In this document: piece by piece, positions 44,513 to 64,000 of the stretch
Layout: the number at the start of each line of letters is the position of its first letter
Position numbering within the stretch: the stretch's first letter is position 1
Source of the DNA: Auanema rhodensis
Taxonomy: Eukaryota; Animalia; Nematoda
Assembly (NCBI GenBank): GCA_964057225.1
Contig: OZ059898.1
Span: 20,398,001-20,462,000 of the forward strand
DNA length: 64,000 nucleotides
Direction: 5' to 3'
Notes under the pieces: model-generated
Databases searched by the model: none
Told to the model about the DNA's origin: nothing
What the model saw: only the letters and a program-made list of their open reading frames with translations
Position numbers and translations under genes: made by a program

Positions 44513-44945
44513 GTCAAGGTTTATTGTTCTTTATCACAGGTTATAACAATAGCAGTTTTGAAAAAAGAAAGTGGATAAAAGAAGTTCCTTACAATATGAA
44601 CATGATTATATAAATTGATTGACATGAAAACATTAATTGTATAGAGATAAGAATAATTATTGAATCAATTATGTCAGTAGAAAATATATATTCTAAACAA
44701 GTAAATCTATGTGTCATAGTTGTCAACCCATCCTTGATAAACAAGGGATTTGTTCAGTTCAAAAAATATGACCTGACCTCATTTTTACTTTTACCAGGTG
44801 CGGTGGAACTTAGAGAAAAAGTCGAGCCCGTTCTGGTAATCAGAGGTAACTATCACCAGATTCGTATGGCTAATGCCTATAGAGTCCATGGTGAAGTAAC
44901 ATTGTAGCAAAGGGAAGAACATTGTAGCAAAGGGAAATTTTTTTT
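44513..44945 (-). mobile_element. 433-bp insertion in the satellite; probable 5'-truncated non-LTR retrotransposon (LINE/SINE) 3' end
   Basis: The satellite phase shifts by exactly 436 bp (next monomer expected at 44531, found at 44967). TTA flanks both sides (44510-44512, 44946-44948). On the minus strand the insert goes from GC-richer to AT-rich sequence and ends AATAAA-CCTTGAC at the junction (TTTATT at 44520-44525). The other end has a 19-bp direct repeat and a T10 run. The insertion is certain; the class is inferred. Confidence 0.6.
44898..44936. repeat. 19-bp tandem direct repeat AACATTGTAGCAAAGGGAA x2 at the insert end
   Basis: Copies at 44898-44916 and 44918-44936, followed by T10 at 44938-44947. 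Confidence 0.95.
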
Positions 44946-47900
44946 TTAAAGTTCACGTAAATTTCAAAGTCATGGTTACCATGAACCAATATCAATAAAA
45001 ATTTGTTTTTAAACTAATATGGACATGGGGAATCTAATTTTGAAAACCGCATCTCTTTATCTTTCACGTGAAGCGAGTTACATACCTAGTGCACATCACG
45101 TGTACATTTAATTAGCATAAATTAAAGTTCACGTAAATTTCAAAGTCATGGTTACCATGCACCAATATCAATAAAAGTTTGTTTTTAGACTAATATGGAC
45201 ATGGGGAATCTAATTTTGAGAACCGCATCTCTTTATCTTTCACGTGAAGCGAGTTACATATAAAGTGCACATCACGTGTACATTTAATTAGCATAAATTA
45301 AAGTTCACGTAAATTTCAAAGTCATGGTTACCATGAACCAATATCAATAAAAATTTGTTTTTAGACTAATATGGACATGGGGAATCTAATTTTGAAAACC
45401 GCATCTCTTTATCTTTCACGTGAAGCGAGTTACATACCAAGTGCACATCACGTGTACATTTAATTAGCATAAATTAAAGTTCACGTAAATTTCAAAGTCA
45501 TGGTTACCATGAACCAATATCAATAAAAATTTGTTTTTAAACTAATATGGACATGGGGAATCTAATTTTGAAAACCGCATCTCTTTATCTTTCAAGTGAA
45601 GCGAGTTACATACCAAGTGCACATCACGTGTACATTTAATTAGCATAAATTAAAGTTCACGTAAATTTCAAAGTCATGGTTACCATGAACCAATATCAAT
45701 AAAAATTTGTTTTCAAACTAATATGGACATGGGGATTCTAATTTTGAAAACCGCATCTCTTTATCTTTCACGTGAAGCGAGTTACATACCTAGTGCACAT
45801 CACGTGTACATTTAATTAGCATAAATTAAAGTTCACGTAAATTTCAAAGTCATGGTTACCATGAACCAATATCAATAAAAATTTGTTTTTAGACTAATTT
45901 GGACATGGAGAATCTAATTTTGAAAACCGCATCTCTTTATCTTTCAAGTGATGCGAGTTACATACCAAGTGCACATCACGTGTACATTTAATTAGCATAA
46001 ATTAAAGTTCACGTAAATTTCAAAGTCATGGTTACCATGAACCAATATCAATAAAAATTTGTTTTTAAACTAATATGGACATGGGGAATCTAATTTTGAA
46101 AACCGCATCTCTTTATCTTTCACGTGAAGCGAGTTACATACCTAGTGCACATCACGTGTACATTTAATTAGCATAAGTTGAAGTTCACGTAAATTTCAAA
46201 GTCATGGTTACCATGAACCAATATCAATGAAAATTTGTTTTTAGACTAATATGGACATGGGGAATCTAATTTTGAAAACCGCATCTCTTTATCTTTCACG
46301 TGAAGCGAGTTACATATAAAGTGCACATCACGTGTACATTTAATTAGCATAAATTAAAGTTCACGTAAATTTCAAAGTCATGGTTACCATGCACCAATAT
46401 TAATAAAAATTTGTTTTTAGACTAATATGGACATGGGGAATCTAATTTTGAAAACCGCATCTCTTTATCTTTCAAGTGAAGCGAGTTACATACCAAGTGC
46501 ACATCACGTGTACACTTAATTAGCATAAATTAAAGTTCACGTAAATTTCAAAGTCATGGTTACCATGCACCAATATCAATGAAAATTTGTTTTTAGACTA
46601 ATATGGACATGGGGAATCTAATTTTGAAAACCGCATCTCTTTATCTTTCAAGTGAAGCGAGTTACATACCAAGTGCACATCACGTGTACATTTAATTAGC
46701 ATAAATTAAAGTTCACGTAAATTTCAAAGTCATGGTTACCATGAACCAATATCAATAAAAATTTGTTTTTAAACTAATATGGACATGGGGATTCTAATTT
46801 TGAAAACCGCATCTCTTTATCTTTCACGTGAAGCGAGTTACATATAAAGTGCACATCACGTGTACATTTAATTAGCATAAATTAAAGTTCACGTAAAATT
46901 CAAAGTCATGGTTACCATGAACCAATATCAATAAAAATTTGTTTTGAAACTAATATGGACATGGGGAATCTAATTTTGAAAACCGCATCTCTTTATCTTT
47001 CACGTGAAGCGAGTTACATACCTAGTGCACATCACGTGTACATTTAATTAGCATAAATTAAAGTTCACGTAAATTTCAAAGTCATGGTTACCATGAACCA
47101 ATATCAATAAAAATTTGTTTTTAGACTAATATGGACATGGGGAATCTAATTTTGAAAACCGCATCTCTTTATCTTTCACGTGAAGCGAGTTACATATAAA
47201 GTGCACATCACGTGTACATTTAATTAGCATAAATTAAAGTTCACGTAAATTTCAAAGTCATGGTTACCATGCACCAATATTAATAAAAATTGGTTTTTAG
47301 ACTAATATGGACATGGGGAATCTAATTTTGAAAACTGCATCTCTTTATCTTTCACGTGAAGCGAGTTACATACCAAGTGCACATCACGTGTACACTTAAT
47401 TAGCATAAATTAAAGTTCACGTTAATTTCAAAGTCATGGTTACCATGAACCAATATCAATAAAAACTTGTTTTTAGACTAATATGGACATGGGGAATCTA
47501 ATTTTGAAAACCGCATCTCTTTATCTTTCACGTGAAGCGAGTTACATATAAAGTGCACATCACGTGTACATTTAATTAGCATAAATTAAAGTTCACGTAA
47601 ATTTCAAAGTCATGGTTACCATGCACCAATATTAATAAAAATTTGTTTTTAGACTAATATGGACATGGGGAATCTAATTTTGAAAACCGCATCTTTTTAT
47701 CTTTCACGTGAAGCGAGTTACATACCAAGTGCACATCACGTGTACACTAAATTAGCATAAATTAAAGTTCACGTTAATTTCAAAGTCATGGTTACCATGA
47801 ACCAATATCAATAAAAATTTGTTTTTAGACTAATATGGACATGGGGAATCTAATTTTGAAAATCGCATCTCTTTATCTTTCAAGTGAAGCGAGTTACATA

Positions 47901-50900
47901 CCAAGTGCACATCACGTGTACATTTAATTAGCATAAATTAAAGTTCACGTAAATTTCAAATTCATGGTTACCATGAACCAATATCAATAAAAATTTGTTT
48001 TTAAACTAATATGGACATGGGGATTCTAATTTTGAAAACCGCATCTCTTTATCTTTCACGTGAAGCGAGTTACATACCTAGTGCACATCACGTGTACATT
48101 TAATTAGCATAAATTAAAGTTCACGTAAATTTCAAAGTCATGGTTACCATGAACCAATATCAATAAAAATTTGTTTTTAGACTAAATTGGACATGGGGAA
48201 TCTAATTTTGAAAACCGCATCTCTTTATCTTTCAAGTGAAGCGAGTTACATACCAAGTGCACATCAAGTGTACATTTAATTAGCATAAATTAAAGTTCAC
48301 GTAAATTTCAAATTCATGGTTACCATGAACCAATATCAATAAAAATTTGTTTTTAAACTAATATGGACATGGGGAATCTAATTTTGAAAACCGCATCTCT
48401 TTATCTTTCACGTGAAGCGAGTTACATACCTAGTGCACATCACGTGTACATTTAATTAGCATAAATTAAAGTTCACGTAAATTTCAAATTCATGGTTACC
48501 ATGAACCAATATCAATAAAAATTTGTTTTTAAACTAATATGGACATGGGGATTCTAATTTTGAAAACCGCATCTCTTTATCTTTCACGTGAAGCGAGTTA
48601 CATACCTAGTGCACATCACGTGTACATTTAATTAGCATAAATTAAAGTTCACGTAAATTTCAAAGTCATGGTTACCATGAACCAATATCAATAAAAATAT
48701 GTTTTTAGACTAATTTGGACATGGGGAATCTAATTTTGAAAACCGCATCTCTTTATCTTTCACGTGAAGCGAGTTACATATAAAGTGCACATCACGTGTA
48801 CATTTAATTAGCATAAATTAAAGTTCACGTAAATTTCAAAGTCATGGTTACCATGCACCAATATTAATAAAAATTTGTTTTTAGACTAATATGAACATGG
48901 GGAATCTAATTTTGAAAACCGCATCTTTTTATCTTTCACGTGAAGCGAGTTACATACCAAGTGCACATCACGTGTACACTAAATTAGCATAAATTAAAGT
49001 TCACGTTAATTTCAAAGTCATGGTTACCATGCACCAATATCAATAAAAATTTGTTTTTAGACTAATTTGGACATGGGGAATCTAATTTTGAAAACCGCAT
49101 CTCTTTATCTTTCACGTGAGGCGAGTTACATACCAAGTGCACATCACGTGTACATTTAATTAGCATAAATTAAAGTTCACGTAAATTTCAAAGTCATGGT
49201 TACCATGAACCAATATCAATAAAAATTTGTTTTTAGACTAATATGGACATGGGGAATCTAATTTTGAAAACCGCATCTCTTTATCTTTCAAGTGAAGCGA
49301 GTTACATACCAAGTGCACATCACGTGTACATTTAATTAGCATAAATTAAAGTTCACGTAAATTTCAAATTCATGGTTACCATGAACCAATATCAATAAAA
49401 ATTTGTTTTTAAACTAATATGGACATGGGGATTCTAATTTTGAAAACCGCATCTCTTTATCTTTCACGTGAAGCGAGTTACATACCTAGTGCACATCACG
49501 TGTACATTTAATTAGCATAAATTAAAGTTCACGTAAATTTCAAAGTCATGGTTACCATGAACCAATATCAATAAAAATTTGTTTTTAGACTAATTTGGAC
49601 ATGGGGAATCTAATTTTGAAAACCGCATCTCTTTATCTTTCAAGTGAAGCGAGTTACATACCAAGTGCACATCACGTGTACATTTAATTAGCATAAATTA
49701 AAGTTCACGTAAATTTCAAATTCATGGTTACCATGAACCAATATCAATAAAAATTTGTTTTTAAACTAATATGGACATGGGGAATCTAATTTTGAAAACC
49801 GCATCTCTTTATCTTTCACGTGAAGCGAGTTACATACCTAGTGCACATCACGTGTACATTTAATTAGCATAAATTAAAGTTCACGTAAATTTCAAATTCA
49901 TGGTTACCATGAACCAATATCAATAAAAATTTGTTTTTAAACTAATATGGACATGGGGATTCTAATTTTGAAAACCGCATCTCTTTATCTTTCACGTGAA
50001 GCGAGTTACATACCTAGTGCACATCACGTGTACATTTAATTAGCATAAATTAAAGTTCACGTAAATTTCAAAGTCATGGTTACCATGAACCAATATCAAT
50101 AAAAATTTGTTTTTAGACTAATTTGGACATGGGGAATCTAATTTTGAAAACCGCATCTCTTTATCTTTCAAGTGAAGCGAGTTACATACCAAGTGCACAT
50201 CACGTGTACATTTAATTAGCATAAATTAAAGTTCACGTAAATTTCAAAGTCATGGTTACCATGAACCAATATCAATAAAAATTTGTTTTTAGACTAATAT
50301 GGACATGGGGAATCTAATTTTGAAAACCGCATCTTTTTATCTTTCACGTGAAGCGAGTTACATACCAAGTGCACATCACGTGTACACTAAATTAGCATAA
50401 ATTAAAGTTCACGTTAATTTCAAAGTCATGGTTACCATGCACCAATATCAATAAAAATTTGTTTTTAGACTAATTTGGACATGGGGAATCTAATTTTGAA
50501 AACCGCATCTCTTTATCTTTCAAGTGAGGCGAGTTACATACCAAGTGCACATCACGTGTACATTTAATTAGCATAAATTAAAGTTCACGTAAATTTCAAA
50601 GTCATGGTTACCATGAACCAATATCAATAAAAATTTGTTTTTAGACTAATATGGACATGGGGAATCTAATTTTGAAAACCGCATCTCTTTATCTTTCAAG
50701 TGAAGCGAGTTACATACCAAGTGCACATCACGTGTACATTTAATTAGCATAAATTAAAGTTCACGTAAATTTCAAATTCATGGTTACCATGAACCAATAT
50801 CAATAAAAATTTGTTTTTAAACTAATATGGAAATGGGGAATCTAATTTTGAAAACCGCATCTCTTTATCTTTCACGTGAAGCGAGTTACATACCTAGTGC

Positions 50901-53900
50901 ACATCACGTGTACATTTAATTAGCATAAATTAAAGTTCACGTAAATTTCAAATTCATGGTTACCATGAACCAATATCAATAAAAATTTGTTTTTAAACTA
51001 ATATGGACATGGGGATTCTAATTTTGAAAACCGCATCTCTTTATCTTCCACGTGAAGCGAGTTACATACCTAGTGCACATCACGTGTACATTTAATTAGC
51101 ATAAATTAAAGTTCACGTAAATTTCAAAGTCATGGTTACCATGAATCAATATCAATAAAAAGTTGTTTTTAGACTAATTTGGACATGGGGAATCTAATTT
51201 TGTAAAACGCATCTCTTTATCTTTCAAGTGAAGCGAGTTACATACCAAGTGCACATCACGTGTACATTTAATTAGCATAAATTAAAGTTCACGTAAATTT
51301 CAAAGTCATGGTTACCATGAACCAATATCAATAAAAATTTGTTTTTAGACTAATATGGACATGGGGAATCTAATTTTGAAAACCGCATCTTTTTATCTTT
51401 CACGTGAAGCGAGTTACATACCAAGTGCACATCACGTGTACACTAAATTAGCATAAATTAAAGTTCACGTTAATTTCAAAGTCATGGTTACCATGCACCA
51501 ATATCAATAAAAATTTGTTTTTGGACTAATTTGGACATGGGGAATCTAATTTTGAAAACCGCATCTCTTTATCTTTCACGTGAGGCGAGTTACATACCAA
51601 GTGCACATCACGTGTACATTTAATTAGCATAAATTAAAGTTCACGTAAATTTCAAAGTCATGGTTACCATGAACCAATATCAATAAAAATTTGTTTTTAG
51701 ACTAATATGGACATGGGGAATCTAATTTTGAAAACCGCATCTCTTTATCTTTCACGTGAGGCGAGTTACATACCAAGTGCACATCACGTGTACATTTAAT
51801 TAGCATAAATTAAAGTTCACGTAAATTTCAAAGTCATGGTTACCATGAACCAATATCAATAAAAATTTGTTTTTAGACTAATTTGGACATGGGGAATCTA
51901 ATTTTGAAAACCGCATCTCTTTATCTTTCAAGTGAAGCGAGTTACATACCAAGTGCACATCACGTGTACATTTAATTAGCATAAATTAAAGTTCACGTAA
52001 ATTTCAAATTCATGGTTACCATGAACCAATATCAATAAAAATTTGTTTTTAAACTAATATGGACATGGGGAATCAAATTTTGAAAACCGCATCTCTTTAT
52101 CTTTCACGTGAAGCGAGTTACATACCTAGTGCACATCACGTGTACATTTAATTAGCATAAATTAAAGTTCACGTAAATTTCAAAGTCATGGTTACCATGA
52201 ATCAATATCAATAAAAATTTGTTTTTAGACTAATTTGGACATGGGGAATCTAATTTTGAAAACCGCATCTCTTTATCTTTCAAGTGAAGCGAGTTACATA
52301 CCAAGTGCACATCACGTGTACATTTAATTAGCATAAATTAAAGTTCACGTAAATTTCAAAGTCATGGTTACCATGAACCAATATCAATAAAAATTTGTTT
52401 TTAGACTAATATGGACATGGGGAATCTAATTTTGAAAACCGCATCTTTTTATCTTTCACGTGAAGCGAGTTACATACCAAGTGCACATCACGTGTACACT
52501 GAATTAGCATAAATTAAAGTTCACGTTAATTTCAAAGTCATGGTTACCATGCACCAATATCAATAAAAATTTGTTTTTAGACTAATTTGGACAAGGGGAA
52601 TCTAATTTTGAAAACCGCATCTCTTTATCTTTCACGTGAGGCGAGTTACATACCAAGTGCACATCACGTGTACATTTAATTAGCATAAATTAAAGTTCAC
52701 GTAAATTTCAAATTCATGGTTACCATGAACCAATATCAATAAAAATTTGTTTTTAAACTAATATGGACATGGGGATTCTAATTTTGAAAACCGCATCTCT
52801 TTATCTTTCACGTGAAGCGAGTTACATACCTAGTGCACATCACGTGTACATTTAATTAGCATAAATTAAAGTTCACGTAAATTTCAAAGTCATGGTTACC
52901 ATGAACCAATATCAATAAAAATTTGTTTTTAGACTAATTTGGACATGGGGAATCTAATTTTGAAAACCGCATCTCTTTATCTTTCAAGTGAAGCGAGTTA
53001 CATACCAAGTGCACATCACGTGTACATTTAATTAGCATAAATTAAAGTTCACGTAAATTTCAAATTCATGGTTACCATGAACCAATATCAATAAAAATTT
53101 GTTTTTAAACTAATATGGACATGGGGAATCTAATTTTGAAAACCGCATCTCTTTATCTTTCACGTGAAGCGAGTTACATACCTAGTGCACATCACGTGTA
53201 CATTTAATTAGCATAAATTAAAGTTCACGTAAATTTCAAATTCATGGTTACCATGAACCAATATCAATAAAAATTTGTTTTCAAACTAATATGGACATGG
53301 GGATTCTAATTTTGAAAACCGCATCTCTTTATCTTTCACGTGAAGCGAGTTACATACCTAGTGCACATCACGTGTACATTTAATTAGCATAAATTAAAGT
53401 TCACGTAAATTTCAAATTCATGGTTACCATGAACCAATATCAATAAAAATTTGTTTTTAAACTAATATGGACATGGGGATTCTAATTTTGAAAACCGCAT
53501 CTCTTTATCTTTCACGTGAAGCGAGTTACATACCTAGTGCACATCACGTGTACATTTAATTAGCATAAATTAAAGTTCACGTAAATTTCAAAGTCATGGT
53601 TACCATGAACCAATATCAATAAAAATTTGTTTTTAGACTAATTTGGACATGGGGAATCTAATTTTGAAAACCGCATCTCTTTATCTTTCAAGTGAAGCGA
53701 GTTACATACCAAGTGCACATCACGTGTACATTTAATTAGCATAAATTAAAGTTCACGTAAATTTCAAAGTCATGGTTACCATGAACCAATATCAATAAAA
53801 ATTTGTTTTTAGACTAATATGGACATGGGGAATCTAATTTTGAAAACCTTATCTCTTTATCTTTCACGTGAAGCGAGTTACATATAAAGTGCACATCAAG

Positions 53901-55424
53901 TGTACATTTAATTAGCATAAATTAAAGTTCACGTAAATTTCAAAGTCATGGTTACCATGCACCAATATTAATAAAAATTTGTTTTTAGACTAATATGGAC
54001 ATGGGGAATCTAATTTTGAAAACCGCATCTCTTTATCTTTCACGTGAAGCGAGTTACATATAAAGTGCACATCAAGTGTACATTTAATTAGCATAAATTA
54101 AAGTTCACGTAAATTTCAAAGTCATGGTTACCATGCACCAATATTAATAAAAATTTGTTTTTAGACTAATATGGACATGGGGAATCTAATTTTGAAAACC
54201 GCATCTCTTTATCTTTCACGTGAAGCGAGTTACATACCAAGTGCACATCACGTGTACATTTAATTAGTATAAATTAAAGTTCACGTAAATTTCAAAGTCA
54301 TGGTTACCATGAACCAATATCAATAAAAATTTGTTTTTAGACTAATTTGGACATGGGGAATCTAATTTTGAAAACCGCATCTCTTTATCTTTCAAGTGAA
54401 GCGAGTTACATACCAAGTGCACATCACGTGTACATTTAATTAGCATAAATTAAAGTTCACGTAAAATTCAAAGTCATGGTTACCATGAACCAATATCAAT
54501 AAAAATTTGTTTTTAGACTAATTTGGACATGGGGAATCTAATTTTGAAAACCGCATCTCTTTATCTTTCAAGTGAAGCGAGTTACATACCAAGTGCACAT
54601 CACGTGTACATTTAATTAGCATAAATTAAAGTTCACGTAAATTTCAAAGTCATGGTTACTATGAACCAATATCAATAAAAATTTGTTTTTAAACTAATAT
54701 GGACATGGGGAATCTAATTTTGAAAACCGCATCTCTTTATCTTTCACGTGAGGCGAGTTACATACCAAGTGCACATCACGTGTACATTTAATTAGCATAA
54801 ATTAAAGTTCACGTAAATTTCAAAGTCATGGTTACCATGAACCAATATCAATAAAAATTTGTTTTTAGACTAATATGGACATGGGGAATCTAATTTTGAA
54901 AACCGCATCTCTTTATCTTTCAAGTGAAGCGAGTTACATACCAAGTGCACATCACGTGTACATTTAATTAGCATAAATTAAAGTTCACGTAAATTTCAAA
55001 TTCATGGTTACCATGAACCAATATCAATAAAAATTTGTTTTTAGACTAATTTGGACATGGGGAATCTAATTTTGAAAACCGCATCTCTTTATCTTTCACG
55101 TGAAGCGAGTTACATACCTAGTGCACATCACGTGTACATTTAATTAGCATAAATTAAAGTTCACGTAAATTTCAAAGTCATGGTTACCATGAATCAATAT
55201 CAATAAAAATTTGTTTTTAGACTAATATGGACATGGGGAATCTAATTTTGAAAACCGCATCTCTTTATCTTTCAAGTGAAGCGAGTTACATACCAAGTGC
55301 ACATCACGTGTACATTTAATTAGCATAAATTAAAGTTCACGTAAATTTCAAATTCATGGTTACCATGAACCAATATCAATAAAAATTTGTTTTTAAACTA
55401 ATATGGACATGGGGAATCTAATTT
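44946..55424. repeat. 176-bp satellite DNA tandem array, right block (about 59 monomers)
   Basis: Same monomer and orientation. Phase is kept from 44967 to 55351 (59x176). The last monomer is cut at ...GGGGAATCTAATTT by the LTR. Confidence 0.99.
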
Positions 55425-55684
55425 TGTGCTTGAGCACTCTATATTCCTAAAAAACCTTAAAAACTCTATCTTTTTCTAATACTTCATAATTCTTTATAAA
55501 TCTCTTTTAACTGATCAATATTCGTGTAAGTTGAACCTAAGGCTCTTTTTACTCATGACTCATAGGCTACTCATCCCCCACGCATATCTCCGCAGAATAA
55601 GCATGAGATAACGCTTGCTTCTCCTCCCCCTTTTTGTATCTCTGAATTCTCTAAGTTAACATTATATCTTGCCTCTCGCGTTAG

Positions 55685-55691
55685 TATATAA
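55685..55691 (+). promoter_or_regulatory. LTR TATA box (TATATAA)
   Basis: gTATATAAgcc in a U3-like position, about 70 bp upstream of AATAAA. Confidence 0.7.
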
Positions 55692-55759
55692 GCCGAGAGG
55701 ATTCCTCAAATTCTTAGGTGTCAATAGTGTAAAAGAATTTATTCTTGTTACCGTTGCAT

Positions 55760-55765
55760 AATAAA
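55760..55765 (+). terminator. LTR polyadenylation signal AATAAA
   Basis: Canonical hexamer downstream of the TATA box, in an R-like position. Confidence 0.65.
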
Positions 55766-55824
55766 TATTCTCTCCATATTCTCTTCGATCAAGAGCACTA
55801 CAAAAATCTACCACTGAACCAACT

Positions 55825-57240
55825 ATGCCACTGCTCCGCTCACCCATTTCTAAGGACACGACGGCGCAAAACATGGTGCATCAGGCCGAGCCTAGTGAAG
55901 CAGCCCGCGCCGAAGCGTGGATTGGAAAATGCTACCAACTATTGGAAAAGATTCGCGAATCGGACAACAAAAGGAAATCGTTCGTCAACCGAACGGTTAA
56001 CTATCATTCTAACCGTGCCTCCAATATGATTGAAATTCGTCTCACGGAAATAAGATCTATCCAAGAGGACACCGAAGCAATCCAAAACTTGATCGAGGAA
56101 ATGAGAAACATAACGGACAACCTAACGGCAGAGGATCAAGAACGCCTAACCGCCAACGAGTGTACTCTCAGAAGACACATCAAATCTCTCACGGACTACA
56201 AAATCCATATCGAAGGACAAATCGAGTTTCTTCGCAACTCGAGACAAGATCAGGACCTGAGAGGAACAATTCCTCGTCTACAAACTCCACAACTTGAAGA
56301 GTCAATTGGAGGATTTCCCTCGAACCAGGACACCAACATCAATCAAGGACATCCTATGATAGTCCAAGATAATTACCGCTATCGCCAGACAGTGAAACCA
56401 GTTGACATTCCAAAGTTTGATGGTAACATCAAGAACTGGACCAATTTCTGGACACTTTTCAACCGGCTTATCCATACCGCCAACATACAGGACATTGAGA
56501 AGTTCAATTACCTTCGCCAATCACTCACGGGTGAAGCAGCCTCATTGATTTCCTCATTTTCAACTGATGAAGAGTCGTACCACCCAGCGGTAAGCTACCT
56601 GAGAAGTGTCTACGATCACGAAGACAAAATTCTCCGATATCTCATGCTCGATTTCATACAACTGAAAGCGCAATCTCCGAGCAACAAGGACTTATTGCTC
56701 CTTATGAGAAAAATTAATGGGATAGCAAGACAAACTGAAAGGAACAATGAAGCTGCCCTCAATGCACTTGCCATCGTCCTTATTCAACAAAAACTGCCTG
56801 GACACATCCTGCAAGAAGTCTACCGCTCAGGATCCAACTCGAACATGAACTGGAGACAACTAGTGGACAATACCGAAAAATACCTCCAACATGAACAAGA
56901 GGTTAAAAACATTTCATCGGACCTGCAGACGAAACCGGTTCCAAGAACCATGCATCAATCCTACAACAGACAAAACTTTGTCACCAATAACCGTCCAAAA
57001 CCGGATAACAAAAAACCTTCCGGTAAGCAAACCTCGAACAGCTGCATATTTTGTCAAAAACCACACGCCCCATGGACCTGTGACACTCCAAAGACAAGGA
57101 AAGAGAGACTGACCATACTGAATCAGGACAAAAGATGCATAAACTGTCTCAGAAAATCTCACGCAACAGAAGCATGCCCAAGCAAGCGCTTATGTTCGAA
57201 CTGTGGAGGAAAACATATTGACCTTCTCTGCTTCAAAAAG
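55825..57240 (+). CDS. gag: Gag region of the polyprotein (BEL/Pao DUF1759-type capsid plus three CCHC knuckles)
   Basis: IPKFDGNIKNWTNFWTLF...EKFNYLRQSLTGEA (56407-56538). Knuckles CIFCQKPHAPWTC, CINCLRKSHATEAC and CSNCGGKHIDLLC (57043-57231). Confidence 0.92.
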
Positions 57241-60200
57241 AAAACGACAAAAGTCAACTTAACGAACAGCTTCCCCATGGAAGACGAGGACGAAGAGGAA
57301 CACGTTATACAGTTTTCAACTCAAACGAAAACTAACCAATACCACAGCGCATTGTTACCCATTGGACAAATAGAGCTCCTTCATAAGGACAGGACCATAT
57401 CAATCCCAGCCCTACTAGACTGTGGATCAGACACTTCATTTATCGACGAGGACCTATCTAAGGAACTGGAACTCCCAATAGTGGAATCCAAAAGAGTCAA
57501 AATCAAAACATTTGGTAACACAGCATCAATCGAAAGACTCAACAAAGTGGAAACAATGTTCAAAGGACACAATTCCCACATCCTCGCACAACTTTGGACT
57601 AAGAAAGTCCTAACAGGACCTATTTCTACCGTCCGATTCTCTAAACCGACCAACACGTGCTACAAGCTGAACAAAAATATGAAGATAACTCCAAGAATCC
57701 TCATAGGATCTGACCTCATGTGGCAAGCATTAATCTCAGTCGAACCATTATCCAAGGAACACATGGTAGTACACACCCAGTTCGGAGACTTTATTACCGG
57801 CCAAGCCACAAACCAGAAGTCGTTGAATGCTCACTCAGTAATATCGGAAGACTTATCCATTTCAATTCCAATATGGAACAAAAGCTTTGTAGAAGAACAA
57901 AGCGAATTCACCGGAACAGAAGCTGAGGAAAAAACCGCCAGAGACAAACTAATTCTGGATCAATTCAAGGAAACAATCCAACAAAAAGAAGATGGTTACT
58001 ACGTATCATTTCCATGGAAAGACAACGCCCATCTACTCCCCGACAACAAAGTTTTAGCACTCAAAAGACTCACCAGTCTTGTACTAAAACTATCCCAACA
58101 ACCAACATTACTCGAAGGATACAACAAAATAATTGAAGAACAGTTGGACCTAGGAATAATCGAAGAAGCTAAGGACCCTTATCCCAACGCATACAGGATC
58201 CATTACATAGCTCACCAAGCAGTAGTAACTCCTCAGAAAGAGACTACTAAAATCAGGATTGTCTACGATGCTTCTGGACATTATCAAAACAAGCCTAGCT
58301 TGAACGACGTCATACACCAAGGACCACTAATCTTACCATCACTAATTGGAATGATTCTAAGATTTAGATGTGGAAACACAGCTATGATAGCGGACGTACA
58401 AAAAGCCTTCTTACAAATTCGACTCCATGAGTCAGAAAGAGATGCTACTCGTTTCTTTTGGCTCAGAGATATTCATCAACCACTAAGCACGGACAACACC
58501 AGAACTCTACGATTCTGCCGAGTACCATTTGGCATCAATGCATCACCATTCCTTCTCGGAGCCACCATACGACACCACCTACAGAAGAAAAGCTCAGAAA
58601 GTCTTCTAGCACATAAAATCAAAGACAATCTTTATGTGGACAACTTACTCCTTGCCTCTGACTCAGCAGACCAAGTCAGAATGTGGTATTCCGAAACAAA
58701 GGATATATTCCAGGAAATGAATATGAAACTCCAAGAGTTCATATCCAACGATCAGATATTCAATTCAAATCTGACTCCTGAAGAACGGAATGCCTCCACA
58801 ACACCTAAAATATTAGGACTTCCCTGGGACACATTATCAGACCAATGGATAATTCAAGCTCAAATCCCGGAAACCAAGCTAACAAAGAGAGGAGTCACAC
58901 AAGCTATCGCATCAATCTTCGATCCAATGGGTATGATCTGCCCAAGTTTACACCCACTACGAATCTTCCTTCAAAATCTATGGACAGAAAGTTTCGATTG
59001 GGACACTACACTACCAATGGAAATCCAAACCAGATGGAAACAATTATGCGAAAATTTTCACATCAACATAAGGATCCCCCGTCCCCTACCATCGGATACC
59101 AATGGACAATACCATCTGGTAACATGTACCGATTCTAGCGGCAATGCATTAGGATTCTGCTGCTACTTAATCGCAGCATCAACACGACAATTAGCCTTAA
59201 TATTCGCAAAATCTAAATTGCATTCCAAAAACTCAACAATAACAATTCCAAAGGCTGAAATCTCGGCACTAACGATTGGAGTTTTTAACACGCTAAAAAT
59301 CGTGAAGGAAATACAGGACAACATCAAGATTCTAACAGCTACATTCCTCTCCGACTCAGAAATAACACTTGCTTGGATTCGCAAAAAACCAGACCAAAAA
59401 ACGACAGGAGTTTTAGTACAGAACCGAATCAAGGAAATTTCTAATCACATTGAAGAGCTCGAAGATCTGGACATAAAAACTTCATTTGGATACATCCACA
59501 CCAAAGACAACCCAGCGGACCTAGCCACAAGAGGCTGCACAACTGAAGAACTTGAGGATCACTTTTGGTGGAACCCAAAAGCACAGCTAGAAAAAGCTTT
59601 AAACGGACCTCTGTTTTCACTCTGTGACGAAGAAATACGGATACACGCAGCCACTACAGAAACAAGCGATGAAGAACCTTGGATATCAGACTGCTCATCC
59701 TGGATTGAAGCTCAACAAAAATGGATATCCGTACACTACCCACTGACAACAACTCATACGCCTTCCATGTATGCAGAAGCAGAAACCAATCTTCTTCACC
59801 TTCATCAAAACAATTTAATGGTCAGGCTATCAGCAGCCCAAAGGAACGATTTGCGACCTTTACTTAAAAACCATTTATGGTATAGTAGAGGACGTATGAA
59901 CAATGCTGAACTCGAAGAGAGTGCAAAACTACCGATTATAATCTTACCTAAAACAAAAACGGCAAGATTATTAATCGAACATGTTCACGGACAACTCCAC
60001 AAGAGCACAGCACACACAATGGCTGATATTCGCCAAAAATACTGGATACCGCAACTTCGCTCACAAACTCAATCCGTAATAAGGAAATGCCCTGATTGTC
60101 AAAAGATGAACAATCGGCCATACATCTACCCACCTTCAGGAGATGTACCAAGCAGACGTATAAGGAAAAGTCGCCCATTTCAACACGTTGGACTAGACTA

Positions 60201-63200
60201 CTTCGGACCCATAACAACACAGGACCGAAACCAGAAAGCTTGGGGCTGCATCTACACCTGTACCGTCACAAGACTCATTCACTTGGAAGTGATTGAAGAT
60301 TTAACTACTAAATCTTTCTTGAGTTGCTTGAGAAAAATTTGGGCCAGACGAGGATGCCCAGAAAGCATCACATGTGACAATGCATCTACCTTCGAGCTAG
60401 GACAGAAAATCGCCAACAAGCTCATCGTAACAGCCACTACTAACACTTCCGAGAATCAGCATCGAATCAAATGGTACAACATAACTCCATACGCCCCATG
60501 GCAAGGAGGATTTTATGAACGACTCATAAGATCAGTAAAAAATGCCTTATACAAAACACTTCACGGCACACCATCAACAGAAGAATTGTCAATCACATTG
60601 GCAGAATGTGAAGCGACAATCAACACACGACCACTAACCTATATTGGATCAGACACGACGAGAGACGAAATCATTCGACCATGCGACTTCATCCATAAGG
60701 ACATAGATCTGAACATCTACATTGAATCTGAAGATGAAGATTCAGAATACATCGACAATCCAGCTCTTCAAACACAAGCAGATACGGAACTAGCCTTACA
60801 CTCTTCCCGTAAACGGACAAACAAATTTTGGGAACTATGGTCTGAACTCTACCTCAAAGAACTCCGAGAGTCTCATCACCACACAATATCCGTGAAGAAA
60901 GCAGGCACCAACACAAAACCAGAAATTGGACAAATCGTTTTGATCAACGATAGCCCAATTCCTAGACACAAATGGCCAACAGGACGAATTACGAATATTC
61001 ACCCCGACTCAGCGGGTAATATAAGGGAAGTCACACTTCTATCAGAGAATGGAAGAGAATTGAAAAGACCAGTCAACTTACTACACCCAATGGAACTATC
61101 CACGGACAATATTCCACAAACTCTTCAGAAATTGGAAACTATAAGCCCCGCAGTCACTCAACGACAACAAAATCCTCGCAATCTTGAAAGAAAATGGTAC
61201 GGAGAAACTGCATCAATACTCACTCTTCTAACAATATTCACTATATTCCTACCTACAACAATGGCCAATCCAACTATCTCCTGCAATCCAAAGGGAGTCT
61301 TGATACAAGGAATGAACACGGATAATCAACAAGTATGCTCACACAACACTTGTTACAACAGTAGTGAAGGAGGATTGATAACTCTTCCTCTTGAGGACAT
61401 CCTATCAGACTACGAAGTAACTTGGACCTTTAATCACAACTCCAGACTACAATACATGACATTAAACTGTCCAGCAGTTCATTTTTGCTCTACAGTGTCA
61501 TGCACGTTCTGCTCAGCCACATTATTTAACCCATCTTGCTGGCCCTGGACCTCTATGTTACTATTCAGCTTCATAACCTACATAATCACAGCCATTTGCT
61601 ACGGACTATTGCATTCACCATGGGTCATTGGAAAAGCCATCAGACTTTGGACCAACTTCATATACGCAATATGCACATCGTTATTCGGACAGCTATACAT
61701 CCGGACAAATAGATTTAACAAGAAAACAGTTATCCCATTAATAACGCTTCTGTTAATTCACCAATCAATGGCTTGCCAAGAACTTAGTATGAGCACTTCC
61801 CAAGAATCCTCATGCAACAAAGAAACATGCAAGATACAGACTGGACAATCTCTCACTATCAGCCCGTACACACAAGAAGCATGCCTAACGTTCACTAACA
61901 ATCAGAACAAGTTCTCCTTTCTGCGCATACAATGGATCAAAACAACATACTTCTGTGAAATCCGTTCACTCTTCTTCACCCGAGCAACCAGTACTCATGT
62001 AAAGAATAGCAAAAGATGCGCAAGAACTGGATCTTGCCAAGAAAACAAATGCAGCACCATTCAATCGGACACCATGGTTCACGAACTAGAACTAGCCAAC
62101 CAATATCCTGGATCTACACACTGCACAGAATCCTGCGGAGGATTTGGCTGTGGCTGCTTCTATCCATCTTCAGGATGCCTCTTCTACCGCACCTACATGA
62201 AACCTATAGACAAATCTGTTTACGAAGTCTTTTCATGTAACGAATGGATACCTTCCACACAACTACATATCACCTATCTGAACGGAACCACAACCACTTC
62301 ACGGAACATCACGCTTCATTCGGACATTCAAACAGACGTACATCCTTTCAAATTCTCCGCAATCAGTCTAACACCTCCTATTATTCCAAGAATGCAAGGA
62401 CAATTTATTAGAAATTTGACAAGACTGGCCATATGGAACATGAAGTCTACACTGACATGCTCATCTCATGAAAAAGCAAAGAAATTGGACTGTAAAGCAA
62501 ACCCTCAGTGTGAATGCACTCCTGCAGAAGACTCAGTCAACTGCCATTGTGAAAACCAGAACATTCAATCAGTCTTTAACAGTGTTCAAACCATTTTACC
62601 TATATTCACACCTGCTTACTCAATCGAACAGTCACAACGGAACCTTGAAATCAACATCTATCGCAACATGATGGCAGAAATTTATGTAACAGTGGATGGA
62701 ATCTTCAATGTATCATCATCGCACGACGACTCGACATGTTTAATCCATGACTCAATGGTTAGAGGATGCTACAACTGCCAAAACGGAGCACAAGCCAACA
62801 TCATATGTACTTCACCCATAAATGCTTTAGCTGCCACGAACTGCGGTGACACAGCCTTTATGCTACAATGCAGTCCAAAAGGAACATCAAACAATATTCG
62901 ATTACCTATCACTACAGCATCACCATGGATCAACTGTTCATATTCATGCGGACACAATATACAATATTTCTCTCTAACAGGAATATTATATTACGTCAGC
63001 AATATTCAGGACCTACAGAAACACTACATAGAAGGAAACCACTCCTCACTTCACGAAACAGCTATTACCTTTCAATGGCCCGATATTACCCATTTCTACA
63101 ACATCTACCTAGGCTGGTACAAAGAAATTGCAATCTGCATCCTTATAGTAATGCTAGCCCTTGCTGTTTCTTATCACATCATCGCGGCTTACGCAACAAA

Positions 63201-64000
63201 ATTCACCGTCAGCTCCGCCCATGTCATCATTCACCTCGTAAAAATTATTCTCTGGTTACCCATCGCTGTCACCAGCTTCTTCGCCCGCCAGCTCTTTCTT
63301 CTATACAAAAGAAAGACTCACATCCTTCTCGTATTCATACTCACTATAATGTCTATTCCTACTACTCGCTGCTCCGATATTCAAGGTGTCATTGATCGCT
63401 CCAATCATAGATGCCAGAAATACATCCGACTTCCCTTGGAAAAGAGGACCGAATGCCTCAAAGAACTGACTAGGACCATGGACTCCACCCTGAAGCTTCT
63501 CTTTAGCTTAGAGGAGAACAAGGAAACCCCCACCGGAAAAGTCAACGATGTCGCAGCTAATGCTTTAATAGCATACATCAAGCTCAAAGATTTCCTATCT
63601 ACAGCTAAAACATCTTATGTTTTTAATATGGAAAAGGAAAAGCTTAGAATTTTTGGCAATGAGAAGCGCCTCACAGACCTCGTCCGCAACATTCAGAAGG
63701 ACCATCTTAGCTCTATCGAACTTAAGAACATGCCTTATGGATTTACAAAGGTCCAGAAGGAAAGGGATCCAGCTCCCACTACAAAGAGCAACATTATAGT
63801 CGTAGAAGCTATGCCCGAACTCAAAAGGATAGATCTCACAACCCGCAACATCGGTGAGGATCTTACAACTTTGACTCGAATTATTATGAGATCAAACAAT
63901 GACGACAAAGGCAAGGACATATTGGATGAACTCCGACAGATCAAGGACCTATTGAAGCAAATGGTCCCAAAGACCATTCAGCCAACCTTATCAAAGGACA
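55825..64000 (+). CDS. Gag-Pol-Env(+X) polyprotein, at least 2725 aa, open at the window end
   Basis: Hand translation in frame +1 found no stop from ATG 55825 (MPLLRSPISKD...) to ...MVPKTIQPTLSKD. Upstream in-frame stops lie at 55759-55764. An alternative in-frame ATG is at 55873. Confidence 0.95.
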   Translation, partial: MPLLRSPISKDTTAQNMVHQAEPSEAARAEAWIGKCYQLLEKIRESDNKRKSFVNRTVNYHSNRASNMIEIRLTEIRSIQEDTEAIQNLIEEMRNITDNLTAEDQERLTANECTLRRHIKSLTDYKIHIEGQIEFLRNSRQDQDLRGTIPRLQTPQLEESIGGFPSNQDTNINQGHPMIVQDNYRYRQTVKPVDIPKFDGNIKNWTNFWTLFNRLIHTANIQDIEKFNYLRQSLTGEAASLISSFSTDEESYHPAVSYLRSVYDHEDKILRYLMLDFIQLKAQSPSNKDLLLLMRKINGIARQTERNNEAALNALAIVLIQQKLPGHILQEVYRSGSNSNMNWRQLVDNTEKYLQHEQEVKNISSDLQTKPVPRTMHQSYNRQNFVTNNRPKPDNKKPSGKQTSNSCIFCQKPHAPWTCDTPKTRKERLTILNQDKRCINCLRKSHATEACPSKRLCSNCGGKHIDLLCFKKKTTKVNLTNSFPMEDEDEEEHVIQFSTQTKTNQYHSALLPIGQIELLHKDRTISIPALLDCGSDTSFIDEDLSKELELPIVESKRVKIKTFGNTASIERLNKVETMFKGHNSHILAQLWTKKVLTGPISTVRFSKPTNTCYKLNKNMKITPRILIGSDLMWQALISVEPLSKEHMVVHTQFGDFITGQATNQKSLNAHSVISEDLSISIPIWNKSFVEEQSEFTGTEAEEKTARDKLILDQFKETIQQKEDGYYVSFPWKDNAHLLPDNKVLALKRLTSLVLKLSQQPTLLEGYNKIIEEQLDLGIIEEAKDPYPNAYRIHYIAHQAVVTPQKETTKIRIVYDASGHYQNKPSLNDVIHQGPLILPSLIGMILRFRCGNTAMIADVQKAFLQIRLHESERDATRFFWLRDIHQPLSTDNTRTLRFCRVPFGINASPFLLGATIRHHLQKKSSESLLAHKIKDNLYVDNLLLASDSADQVRMWYSETKDIFQEMNMKLQEFISNDQIFNSNLTPEERNASTTPKILGLPWDTLSDQWIIQAQIPETKLTKRGVTQAIASIFDPMGMICPSLHPLRIFLQNLWTESFDWDTTLPMEIQTRWKQLCENFHINIRIPRPLPSDTNGQYHLVTCTDSSGNALGFCCYLIAASTRQLALIFAKSKLHSKNSTITIPKAEISALTIGVFNTLKIVKEIQDNIKILTATFLSDSEITLAWIRKKPDQKTTGVLVQNRIKEISNHIEELEDLDIKTSFGYIHTKDNPADLATRGCTTEELEDHFWWNPKAQLEKALNGPLFSLCDEEIRIHAATTETSDEEPWISDCSSWIEAQQKWISVHYPLTTTHTPSMYAEAETNLLHLHQNNLMVRLSAAQRNDLRPLLKNHLWYSRGRMNNAELEESAKLPIIILPKTKTARLLIEHVHGQLHKSTAHTMADIRQKYWIPQLRSQTQSVIRKCPDCQKMNNRPYIYPPSGDVPSRRIRKSRPFQHVGLDYFGPITTQDRNQKAWGCIYTCTVTRLIHLEVIEDLTTKSFLSCLRKIWARRGCPESITCDNASTFELGQKIANKLIVTATTNTSENQHRIKWYNITPYAPWQGGFYERLIRSVKNALYKTLHGTPSTEELSITLAECEATINTRPLTYIGSDTTRDEIIRPCDFIHKDIDLNIYIESEDEDSEYIDNPALQTQADTELALHSSRKRTNKFWELWSELYLKELRESHHHTISVKKAGTNTKPEIGQIVLINDSPIPRHKWPTGRITNIHPDSAGNIREVTLLSENGRELKRPVNLLHPMELSTDNIPQTLQKLETISPAVTQRQQNPRNLERKWYGETASILTLLTIFTIFLPTTMANPTISCNPKGVLIQGMNTDNQQVCSHNTCYNSSEGGLITLPLEDILSDYEVTWTFNHNSRLQYMTLNCPAVHFCSTVSCTFCSATLFNPSCWPWTSMLLFSFITYIITAICYGLLHSPWVIGKAIRLWTNFIYAICTSLFGQLYIRTNRFNKKTVIPLITLLLIHQSMACQELSMSTSQESSCNKETCKIQTGQSLTISPYTQEACLTFTNNQNKFSFLRIQWIKTTYFCEIRSLFFTRATSTHVKNSKRCARTGSCQENKCSTIQSDTMVHELELANQYPGSTHCTESCGGFGCGCFYPSSGCLFYRTYMKPIDKSVYEVFSCNEWIPSTQLHITYLNGTTTTSRNITLHSDIQTDVHPFKFSAISLTPPIIPRMQGQFIRNLTRLAIWNMKSTLTCSSHEKAKKLDCKANPQCECTPAEDSVNCHCENQNIQSVFNSVQTILPIFTPAYSIEQSQRNLEINIYRNMMAEIYVTVDGIFNVSSSHDDSTCLIHDSMVRGCYNCQNGAQANIICTSPINALAATNCGDTAFMLQCSPKGTSNNIRLPITTASPWINCSYSCGHNIQYFSLTGILYYVSNIQDLQKHYIEGNHSSLHETAITFQWPDITHFYNIYLGWYKEIAICILIVMLALAVSYHIIAAYATKFTVSSAHVIIHLVKIILWLPIAVTSFFARQLFLLYKRKTHILLVFILTIMSIPTTRCSDIQGVIDRSNHRCQKYIRLPLEKRTECLKELTRTMDSTLKLLFSLEENKETPTGKVNDVAANALIAYIKLKDFLSTAKTSYVFNMEKEKLRIFGNEKRLTDLVRNIQKDHLSSIELKNMPYGFTKVQKERDPAPTTKSNIIVVEAMPELKRIDLTTRNIGEDLTTLTRIIMRSNNDDKGKDILDELRQIKDLLKQMVPKTIQPTLSKD
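55874..55888 (+). promoter_or_regulatory. Primer binding site, tRNA-Gly(GCC)-like
   Basis: TGGTGCATCaGGCCG directly follows the LTR-terminal CA. TGGTGCATC is complementary to the invertebrate tRNA-Gly(GCC) 3' end (...GATGCACCA). Confidence 0.8.
57349..57801 (+). CDS. Aspartic protease domain of the polyprotein
   Basis: ALLDCGSDTSFI (catalytic D at 57418), downstream ILIGSD, and TQFGDFITG. Confidence 0.9.
57961..59580 (+). CDS. pol: Reverse transcriptase and RNase H domains of the polyprotein
   Basis: RT motifs KIRIVYDAS, SLNDVIHQGP, ADVQKAFLQI, RVPFGINASPFLL, LYVDN (58633), KILGLPWD, SIFDPMG. RNase H motifs CTDSS, TIPKAE, SDSEITLAWI, NPADLATRG. Confidence 0.96.
59881..61098 (+). CDS. Integrase (HHCC zinc finger, DDE core, DUF5641-like C-terminus)
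   Basis: HGQLH...CPDC; PFQHVGLDYFGP (D 60196); CDNA (D 60376); PWQGGFYERL (E 60517); NTRPLTY; FWELWSELYLKELRE; PRHKWPTGRI; RPVNLLHPME. Confidence 0.96.
61210..61773 (+). CDS. Env N-terminal part: internal signal peptide, about 93-aa Cys-rich Gn-like ectodomain, TM segment, tail and second signal peptide
   Basis: RKW...ASILTLLTIFTIFLPTTMA|NPTISC; CPAVHFCSTVSCTFCSATLFNPSCWP; hydrophobic WTSMLLFSFITYIITAICYGLL; KKTVIPLITLLLIHQSMA|C. Confidence 0.75.
61774..63189 (+). CDS. env: Phlebovirus/phenuivirus Gc-like class II membrane fusion glycoprotein
   Basis: Starts CQELSMST after the signal peptide. Motifs EACL, SKRCARTGSC, fusion loop CGGFGCGCF (62134-62160), GCLFYR, GCYNCQNGA. Sequons NGT, NIT, NLT, NVS. 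C-terminal TM IAICILIVMLALAVSYHII. Confidence 0.93.
63307..64000 (+). CDS. Post-Env in-frame module of unknown function (signal-peptide-like segment plus at least 209 aa charged helical domain)
   Basis: No stop after the Gc TM. KRKTHILLVFILTIMSIPTTRC is followed by SDIQGVIDRSNHRCQKYIRLPLEKRTECLKELTRTMDSTLKLLFSLEE...DILDELRQIKDLLKQM. Confidence 0.75.

What the first reader, a model, noticed from the sequence alone, without database searches (positions are those of the whole stretch)
63190..64000. Polyprotein continues past Gc into an extra, unrecognised protein behind a third signal-peptide-like segment
Seen: phlebovirus Gc normally ends a few residues after its TM, but here the frame stays open. 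TM, then a hydrophobic/amphipathic stretch (VIIHLVKIILWLPIAVTSFFARQLFLLY), KRK and ILLVFILTIMSIPTTRC|S repeat the architecture of the Gn-to-Gc junction (TM, amphipathic stretch, KK, VIPLITLLLIHQSMA|C). At least 209 aa of Lys/Glu/Leu-rich, helical-looking sequence follow, with no N-X-S/T sequon and few Cys. Inference: an accessory protein released by signal peptidase, a cytosolic matrix-like or silencing-suppressor protein if the middle segment crosses the membrane, or a separately initiated protein from ATG 63349. This is the best candidate for an undescribed component.
Basis: partly seen in the sequence, partly recalled or inferred. Interest (0 to 1): 0.85.

Follow-up and report, generated by a model that had tools for sequence, protein, structure and literature searches.

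The report
Extra protein behind nematode virus envelope
A retrovirus-like element, likely from a roundworm, carries an extra, conserved protein of no recognised family fused in frame behind its envelope fusion protein, where it is likely cut free into the secretory pathway; extra genes at this spot are known, but this fused form was not found in the papers searched.

Summary
Observation confirmed. The window ends in an intact BEL/Pao (Belpaoviridae) element with a phlebovirus-like Gn-Gc envelope. Its single ORF runs past the Gc anchor through a signal-peptide-like segment into a domain X (from 63373; 209 aa in the window, at most about 271 aa before a stop). X is real: 20 of 26 codons with listed differences among sister copies are synonymous, and a distant element from Auanema sp. 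JU1783 (CAI4220989.1, 41% identical over Env) has an in-frame homologue (28% over 119 columns) behind the same KRKTH-hydrophobic junction. The 'middle segment' is the ordinary Gc tail of these elements, so it probably does not cross the membrane. Charge distribution favours signal-peptidase release of X into the ER lumen (about 0.45). No shared Cys, no sequons and an NLS-like S/P/R-rich tail in the homologue keep a nuclear or cytosolic role open (about 0.3). No Pfam, PDB or fold match. Extra genes 3' of env are known (Cer19-ORF2, zinc knuckles, separate gene); the in-frame, knuckle-less form is a new variant. Function untested.

The parts
1..55424 (.). 176-bp satellite array into which the element is inserted (host context)
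   Evidence: 311 copies, mostly 96-100% identical; 312 unit hits from 127 to 55301
55425..55873 (+). 5' LTR (starts TG, TATA-like at 55685, AATAAA near 55761, ends CA)
   Evidence: contigs join 64000 to 55425 across 133 nt in 4 of 4 RNA-guessed runs, which marks 55425 as the LTR start
55874..55891 (+). Primer-binding site TGGTGCATC..., likely tRNA-Gly (assignment recalled); the in-frame ATG at 55873 straddles LTR end and PBS
   Evidence: ICTV profile PMC8742986 gives tRNA-Arg or tRNA-Gly
55873..61191 (+). Gag (three CCHC knuckles at 57043, 57136, 57193), protease (DCGS 57418), RT (YVDN 58633), RNase H, integrase
   Evidence: Pfam; motifs
61192..61266 (+). Signal 1 (integrase/Gn), predicted cut TMA|N
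   Evidence: KD12 2.68; -3 T, -1 A
61267..61773 (+). Short Gn-like protein, its TM, amphipathic tail and signal 2 (predicted cut SMA|C)
   Evidence: 41-47% identical to P0153
61774..63114 (+). Gc class II fusion ectodomain
   Evidence: PF07245 8e-81; Atlas Gc PDB 7A4A 3e-41
63115..63195 (+). Gc transmembrane anchor
   Evidence: KD19 2.70
63214..63315 (+). Amphipathic, basic Gc tail ending KRK; general in nematode belpaovirus Gc; likely cytosolic and interfacial
   Evidence: 6 basic, 0 acidic residues between TM and third segment; same layout in relatives
63316..63372 (+). Third signal-peptide-like segment, predicted cut TRC|S; contains in-frame ATG 63349
   Evidence: KD12 3.07, -3 T, -1 C; homologue KRKTH + hydrophobic stretch + VHA|L
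63373..64000 (+). Domain X (cut by window end): predicted helical bundle about 1-111, linker, coiled-coil-like helices about 149-197
   Evidence: selection; homologue; low-confidence AF2 models; 3' LTR begins about 133 nt past 64000

Best explanation
Domain X is a conserved accessory protein of an intact nematode-type BEL/Pao element, encoded in frame behind Gc and likely threaded into the ER by a third internal signal peptide and likely cut free by signal peptidase at TRC|S. Shown: the open frame, purifying selection among sister copies, an in-frame homologue in a distant family, and a conserved basic-hydrophobic-small-residue junction. Inferred: the Gc tail (TM, amphipathic helix, KRK) stays on the cytosolic side as the Gn tail does, so the third segment points N-in/C-out and X is released in the lumen in step with Gn and Gc. 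Inferred: X folds as a helical bundle plus an oligomerising coiled coil. Least certain: it travels with the envelope proteins or is secreted, acting as an envelope helper or host-facing factor, placed like flavivirus NS1 behind the E anchor (analogy recalled). Confidence that X is a real selected protein is about 0.93; the figure given covers the luminal-release mechanism.
For: Selection: of 422 differences found, one search listed 40; 28 lie in X, 21 of them at third positions; 20 of 26 affected codons are synonymous against 22-29% expected (p 3e-9 to 6e-7), and none makes a stop. Homologue: P0153 = CAI4220989.1, Auanema sp. JU1783, 41% identical over 887 aa of Env. Its post-Gc domain aligns with X at score 108, against a shuffle maximum of 60 in 3000, with 33 of 119 columns identical. 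Window and P0153 are sisters in a Gc C-terminal tree of 68 rows (100/99). The junction is kept: KRKTH, a 12-residue hydrophobic core (KD 2.43 and 2.27), small residues at -3/-1 (T/C and V/A), like signals 1 and 2. Positive-inside rule: 6 and 7 basic, 0 acidic residues before the segment, 2 and 1 basic in the 15 after the cut. In 4 of 4 RNA-guessed runs (one study) one contig covers Gc and X without gaps or an internal joint. Class II precursors are processed by signal peptidase (PMC8706100, passages).
Against: No SignalP or TM predictor could be run; cleavage rests on hydropathy and the -3/-1 rule. X's two Cys are absent from the homologue (0 Cys), neither protein has a sequon (chance 0.16 and 0.29), and the homologue ends in an S/P/R-rich tail with an NLS-like PDTKRPR: features of nucleocytoplasmic proteins. 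Caenorhabditis gene models with a similar third segment (P0046/P0151, P0055) continue into CCHC zinc-knuckle proteins, which would not work in the lumen. All 4 listed differences in the junction are non-synonymous, and 3 of 4 differences in X in the near-identical RNA-guessed contigs are non-synonymous. The variant rows are the tool's 'best supported' subset pooled over several copies, not a true dN/dS. Only one protein homologue was found, and it is a gene model whose DNA I could not inspect. AF2 models are low confidence (pLDDT 46 and 43).
Confidence: 0.45

Rival explanations
1. X is a nuclear or cytosolic regulator descended from the second gene (Cer19-ORF2 type) that many nematode BEL elements carry 3' of env. 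It lost the zinc knuckles, would be made from the Met in the third segment on a subgenomic RNA or escape translocation, and would regulate or bind viral RNA, working like CERV or Rev.
For: Same genomic slot as Cer19-ORF2 (PMC7084138 passages and Fig S3 text). 8 of 24 hand-picked long tails of Gc relatives carry CCHC knuckles after helical or coiled-coil and low-complexity regions. The homologue has an NLS-like KRPR and the highest RS/SR/SP density of the 27 sequences compared (7.4 per 100). A Met lies 7-8 residues before the predicted cut in both proteins. No shared Cys or sequon. ORF2-like groups barely match each other either (best hhalign probability 7%), so lack of a match to X is weak evidence. 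Nematode precedent for a regulator encoded at the env position: CERV of Cer1 (PMC10309623 passages).
Against: No profile match of X to five groups of such tails (hhalign probability 0.4% or less); best single hit P0050, E 0.015-0.02 among 25 sequences, coiled coil only. No acceptor-like TTTCAG between 63010 and 63349 and no joint inside Env or X. Frame and hydrophobic segment are kept across families 41% apart. The window's X shows no NLS-like motif in the 209 aa visible.
Confidence: 0.3
2. X stays attached to Gc on the cytosolic side, because the middle segment and the third segment both cross the membrane, and acts as a matrix-like bridge between envelope and capsid.
For: The middle segment is fairly hydrophobic (KD19 2.11 in the window, 1.86 in P0153). 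X is charged and helical. Atlas MA lacks a myristoylation signal (10.64898/2026.03.22.711591, section 5), so another membrane link is conceivable.
Against: This topology puts KRK and other basic residues in the lumen, against the positive-inside rule. The same amphipathic basic tail ends the protein in most relatives (70 of 110 end 45-100 aa after the TM start), so the envelope works without X. Small residues at -3/-1 are kept in both families.
Confidence: 0.15
3. Neutral read-through private to this copy; the extension is not a functional protein.
For: Most relatives stop shortly after the Gc tail; no homologue in three word-based protein searches, HMMER over 1.84 billion representatives, or the ESM Atlas.
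Against: Synonymous excess; sister contigs under 90% identical span TM to X; in-frame homologue in a distant family.
Confidence: 0.04

Closest known systems
Atlas virus (Ancylostoma ceylanicum) and Cer13-type belpaoviruses with phlebovirus-like Gn-Gc (PMC9094657; 10.64898/2026.03.22.711591)
   Same: Single Gag-Pol-Env ORF, YVDN in RT, three Gag knuckles, Gn-Gc envelope; Gc matches PDB 7A4A at 3e-41.
   Different: In Atlas, Gc spans the last 498 residues and has one C-terminal TM. Here a third signal-like segment and a 209-271 aa domain follow.
Cer19-ORF2 (C38D9.2, F15D4.5) of Caenorhabditis BEL/Pao elements (PMC7084138)
   Same: Extra coding unit inside the LTRs beside gag-pol(-env); the paper reports a C. 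inopinata copy with gag-pol-env plus ORF2. Similar-looking CCHC tails follow Gc in 8 of 24 examined gene models; calling these ORF2-like is my inference.
   Different: ORF2 is a separate gene with zinc knuckles. X is in frame with Env behind a signal-like segment, its complete homologue has no Cys at all, and no homology to the ORF2-like tails was detected. C38D9.2 itself was not compared.
Cer7-type 'additional reading frames 3' of env' (Bowen and McDonald 1999; recalled, paper not held)
   Same: Extra coding capacity 3' of env in nematode BEL elements.
   Different: Could not be checked; as recalled these are separate frames, not a signal-linked fusion.
Flavivirus E-NS1 junction (recalled) and bunyavirus NSm modules (PMC8706100 passages)
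   Same: Works like: a class II envelope precursor from which signal peptidase frees an extra non-structural protein.
   Different: NS1 is a Cys-rich glycoprotein (recalled); bunyavirus NSm lies before or between Gn and Gc. X follows Gc, is predicted helical, has no conserved Cys, and matched neither by sequence nor fold.
CERV of Cer1 (PMC10309623)
   Same: Nematode LTR element with a non-envelope accessory protein encoded just before the 3' LTR.
   Different: Cer1 is Ty3/Gypsy without Gn-Gc; CERV comes from a spliced mRNA and is nuclear. No sequence comparison was made.

Membership tests
Belpaoviridae (BEL/Pao, Semotivirus) | LTRs of 0.2-1.2 kb, genome 4.2-10 kb | tested here: met
   5' LTR 449 nt; 3' LTR inferred about 133 nt past the window, giving about 9.2 kb; ranges from PMC8742986
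Belpaoviridae (BEL/Pao, Semotivirus) | Gag, then PR-RT-RH-IN, with Pao-type domains | tested here: met
   DUF1759, Asp protease (weak, E 0.016), RVT_1, Peptidase_A17, Integrase_H2C2, DUF5641 in that order
Belpaoviridae (BEL/Pao, Semotivirus) | Three CCHC knuckles in Gag; YVDN in RT of nematode members | tested here: met
   features
Belpaoviridae (BEL/Pao, Semotivirus) | PBS for tRNA-Arg or tRNA-Gly | tested here: inconclusive
   TGG-starting PBS at 55874; match to tRNA-Gly is recalled, no host tRNA was compared
Belpaoviridae (BEL/Pao, Semotivirus) | RT phylogeny | not tested
   only a Gc C-terminal tree was built
Atlas virus clade (Zhai et al. 2026) | Phlebovirus-like Gn-Gc Env | tested here: met
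Atlas virus clade (Zhai et al. 2026) | CA core over 50% identical to Atlas CA | not tested
   Atlas Gag was not fetched
Cer19-ORF2-type protein (domain X) | Lies inside the LTRs next to gag-pol(-env) | tested here: met
Cer19-ORF2-type protein (domain X) | Separate gene | tested here: not met
   in frame with Env here and in P0153; a separate start at an internal Met is not excluded
Cer19-ORF2-type protein (domain X) | zf-CCHC knuckles | tested here: not met
   none in 209 aa of X or in the complete 217-aa homologue, which has 0 Cys; up to 45 codons beyond the window are unseen
Cer19-ORF2-type protein (domain X) | Sequence or fold homology | tested here: inconclusive
   no match to ORF2-like tails, which barely match each other; C38D9.2 itself not compared; models too poor
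Signal-peptidase-released product | Basic n-region, hydrophobic h-region, small -3/-1 residues | tested here: met
   (hydropathy and rule of thumb only)
Signal-peptidase-released product | Actual cleavage and luminal location | not testable with these tools
   needs SignalP/DeepTMHMM and experiment

The most novel reading that the evidence does not exclude
One reading frame gives two proteins in two compartments: a secreted form of X released from the envelope precursor by the third signal peptide, and a nuclear form started at the Met inside that signal. It would work like hepatitis B precore/core (analogy recalled) and be a protein of a new fold family in a class II-enveloped reverse-transcribing virus of nematodes.
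Probability: 0.15. Interest if true: 0.75.

Novelty: new variant of a known kind. Interest (0 to 1): 0.5.

Why it matters
Nematode belpaoviruses with a phlebovirus-type envelope are the clearest case of a retrotransposon borrowing a class II fusion machine, and the described ones (Atlas) end at Gc. A lineage that adds a selected, unrecognised protein to the envelope precursor shows these elements carry accessory functions as complex retroviruses do. It also links the known separate ORF2 slot to the envelope polyprotein. The element is intact, has near-identical and divergent copies, and its Env-X region is covered by contigs of RNA-guessed runs, so processing and location of X can be tested directly. 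The reach is narrow: two families, one named host genus, no function shown.

Tried and rejected
No whole genome is held for the window. Word-based protein searches found nothing: polyprotein region 2400-2725, X against longer proteins and near-length proteins. HMMER over 1.84 billion representatives with Gc C-terminus + X gave 200 hits, 150 listed, all on the Gc part; none covered X, and the furthest reached query residue 221, where X starts at 208. The homologue surfaced only as a cluster member, so these blanks understate the family. Pfam: only DUF6674 at E 0.08-0.1, below cut-off. ESM Atlas: no usable hit for X, only Gc clusters for Gc+X. Metagenome contigs: 67 and 478 pattern matches, none confirmed. 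PDB sequences: nothing for X. AF2 pLDDT 46 (single sequence) and 43 (two sequences). Foldseek found no hit at E<=0.001 in BFVD or PDB. VIA-align best Z 10.6 (Kar9, rmsd 3.0, 103 aligned) and 8.9 (MSP-1, rmsd 2.3, 82 aligned), under the level meaningful for helical bundles and with different top hits in the two models. Rejected: duplication of the Gn junction by sequence; X as a copy of MA or another part of the polyprotein; lack of sequons as evidence; a C14-C28 disulfide as conserved; one origin of the third segment (5 marked rows need 3-4 changes on the tree). No tRNA gene in the element (37). No listed run is on record as RNA; the four RNA-guessed runs lack cover over part of pol and their Env contigs start at 59747, 60431, 60431 and 60622 (35), which contigs cannot turn into evidence for a subgenomic RNA. 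Earlier scan findings: none. Complex prediction was not used. Literature searches showed no description of a post-Gc protein in these elements; Bowen and McDonald 1999 and Ganko 2001 are not held, and the bioRxiv supplement listing the 11 Atlas-clade viruses is closed and may bear on novelty.

Full report
Setting. The first 55.4 kb of the window is a 176-bp satellite. At 55425 an LTR begins; it ends at 55873, followed by a TGG primer-binding site. One stop-free frame runs from 55765 to the window end. Pfam gives DUF1759, protease, RT, Peptidase_A17, integrase, DUF5641 and Phlebovirus_G2; Gag has three CCHC knuckles and RT has YVDN; Gc matches Atlas Gc (PDB 7A4A, 3e-41). This is an intact nematode-type belpaovirus. 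The host is inferred to be a nematode from the named relatives.

Observation. X starts at 63373 and has 209 aa in the window; 0 of 20000 shuffles of its DNA are stop-free. In 4 of 4 RNA-guessed runs from one study, a contig 99% alike joins 64000 to the LTR start across 133 letters. If this copy is the same, at most 45 codons remain before the 3' LTR and 17 more to the first stop inside it, so X is 209-271 aa and most of it is in view. The lack of sequons is not informative (773 of 5000 shuffles), and the two junctions share layout but not sequence (820 of 2000 shuffles score as high).

Is X real? Contigs of four DNA runs (three studies) include sister copies under 90% identical that run from the Gc anchor into X, for example an 861-nt contig over 62940-63794 with 116 differences and two compensating one-base gaps. 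The tool listed 40 of 422 differences. Of these, 28 lie in X, 21 at third positions; 20 of the 26 affected codons are synonymous, against 22-29% expected (p at most 6e-7), and none is a stop. This is a pooled, tool-selected subset, not a dN/dS, and a stop among the 382 unlisted rows cannot be excluded. Against the trend, all 4 listed junction differences are non-synonymous, and 3 of 4 differences in X in the near-identical RNA-guessed contigs are non-synonymous. Independent support comes from P0153 (CAI4220989.1, Auanema sp. JU1783), 41% identical over Env: Gc ectodomain 50%, Gn 41%, Gc tail and junction 31%, X 28% over 119 columns with score 108 against a shuffle maximum of 60 in 3000. It keeps KRKTH, a hydrophobic core and a small-residue site (VHA|L), and its domain is 217 aa with a stop. 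It is a gene model whose DNA I could not see.

Relatives. HMMER over 1.84 billion representatives gave 200 hits, 150 listed, all on the Gc C-terminal part. Of the 150, 110 had a recognisable Gc TM: 24 end under 45 aa after its start (many probably fragments), 70 end at 45-100 aa and 16 run longer (a looser rule gave 113 with 82, 17 and 14). The usual ending is TM, basic amphipathic helix, basic patch, stop. So the 'middle segment' is the standard Gc tail. A third hydrophobic segment by a fixed rule occurs in 2 of 110 (P0046 C. nigoni, P0055 C. brenneri), plus the window, P0153 and P0151; P0048 looks similar by eye. These do not form one group in the Gc tree, whereas window and P0153 are sisters. 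Among 24 long tails picked by hand, 8 carry CCHC knuckles. They resemble Cer19-ORF2 in position and motif (my inference), and several models lack the TM, which suggests gene-finder joins. X matches none of them beyond a coiled coil. In C. nigoni, P0152 stops 18 aa after a similar third segment while P0046 and P0151 run on.

Mechanism. Shown: open frame, selection, homologue, conserved junction. Inferred topology: between the Gc TM and the third segment lie 6 (window) and 7 (P0153) basic and no acidic residues, as in the Gn tail (6 and 0), and few basic residues follow the cut. The tail is thus likely cytosolic, the third segment N-in/C-out, and X luminal after signal-peptidase cleavage, the enzyme that processes class II precursors (PMC8706100). 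I give this 0.45. The main rival (0.3) is a nuclear or cytosolic regulator derived from the ORF2 slot: no shared Cys, no sequons, an NLS-like S/P/R-rich tail in P0153, a Met just before the cut in both proteins, and Caenorhabditis models where a similar segment precedes zinc knuckles. Against it, no acceptor-like site lies near 63349 and no joint is seen. A tethered matrix-like domain (0.15) breaks the positive-inside rule. Neutral read-through (0.04) is largely refuted. Both AF2 models agree on helices at about 2-111 and 149-197 but have pLDDT under 50, and four fold searches gave nothing beyond generic bundles. What X does is untested; an envelope-associated or secreted helper is the committed guess.

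Known systems. Atlas ends at Gc with one TM (PMC9094657, passages). The Atlas capsid preprint (abstract and section 5) and the ICTV profile (whole text) mention no post-Gc protein in what I read. Cer19-ORF2 is a separate zinc-knuckle gene inside the LTRs, with gag-pol-env beside it in C. inopinata (PMC7084138, passages and supplement passages). CERV shows that nematode elements encode regulators at the env position (PMC10309623, passages). PMC3118150, PMC554778, PMC8706100 and PMC4367959 were seen as passages only. Extra reading frames 3' of env in Cer7-type elements are recalled from Bowen and McDonald 1999, which is not held; flavivirus NS1 and HBV precore analogies are also recalled. Nine searches showed no description of an in-frame post-Gc protein; the library lacks most subscription papers, and GyDB and Repbase were not searchable.

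Verdict. The element is a new member of a known family. Domain X is a real, selected, unrecognised protein in a known accessory-gene slot but in an arrangement I did not find described: fused in frame to Gc behind a third signal-like segment and without zinc knuckles. New variant of a known kind; interest 0.5.

Noticed in passing
window 1-55424: Homogeneous 176-bp satellite array (about 312 units, 31.5% GC); the element is inserted within a unit.
   Followed up: partly
window about 44512-44945: A roughly 435-bp AT-rich insert interrupts the satellite; it has no similarity to the element or its LTR and ends in a short tandem duplication and a T run.
   Followed up: partly
window 55873-55876: The likely Gag start ATG is formed by the last LTR base and the first two PBS bases; the upstream in-frame ATG at 55825 lies inside the LTR.
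   Followed up: no
window 59747-64000: Contigs of the RNA-guessed runs cover Env-X and the LTR and begin at 59747, 60431 (twice) and 60622; one study only and contigs cannot show starts, so at most a hint of a subgenomic env RNA.
   Followed up: partly
window 61267-61542: The Gn ectodomain is only about 92 aa, much shorter than phlebovirus Gn; conserved in P0153 (41%).
   Followed up: no
P0023, P0038, P0048, P0050, P0055, P0063, P0087, P0119, P0151: Gene models from strongylids, Heterorhabditis and Caenorhabditis join Gc to a helical, coiled-coil, acidic, CCHC-knuckle protein: an ORF2-like gene 3' of env seems widespread beyond Caenorhabditis; Pfam names no family in those tails that were scanned (P0151 not scanned).
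   Followed up: partly
short-tailed Gc relatives: 19 of 64 end in a K/Q-L-L-like motif, at about the position where the window's third hydrophobic segment begins; possibly a sorting signal.
   Followed up: no
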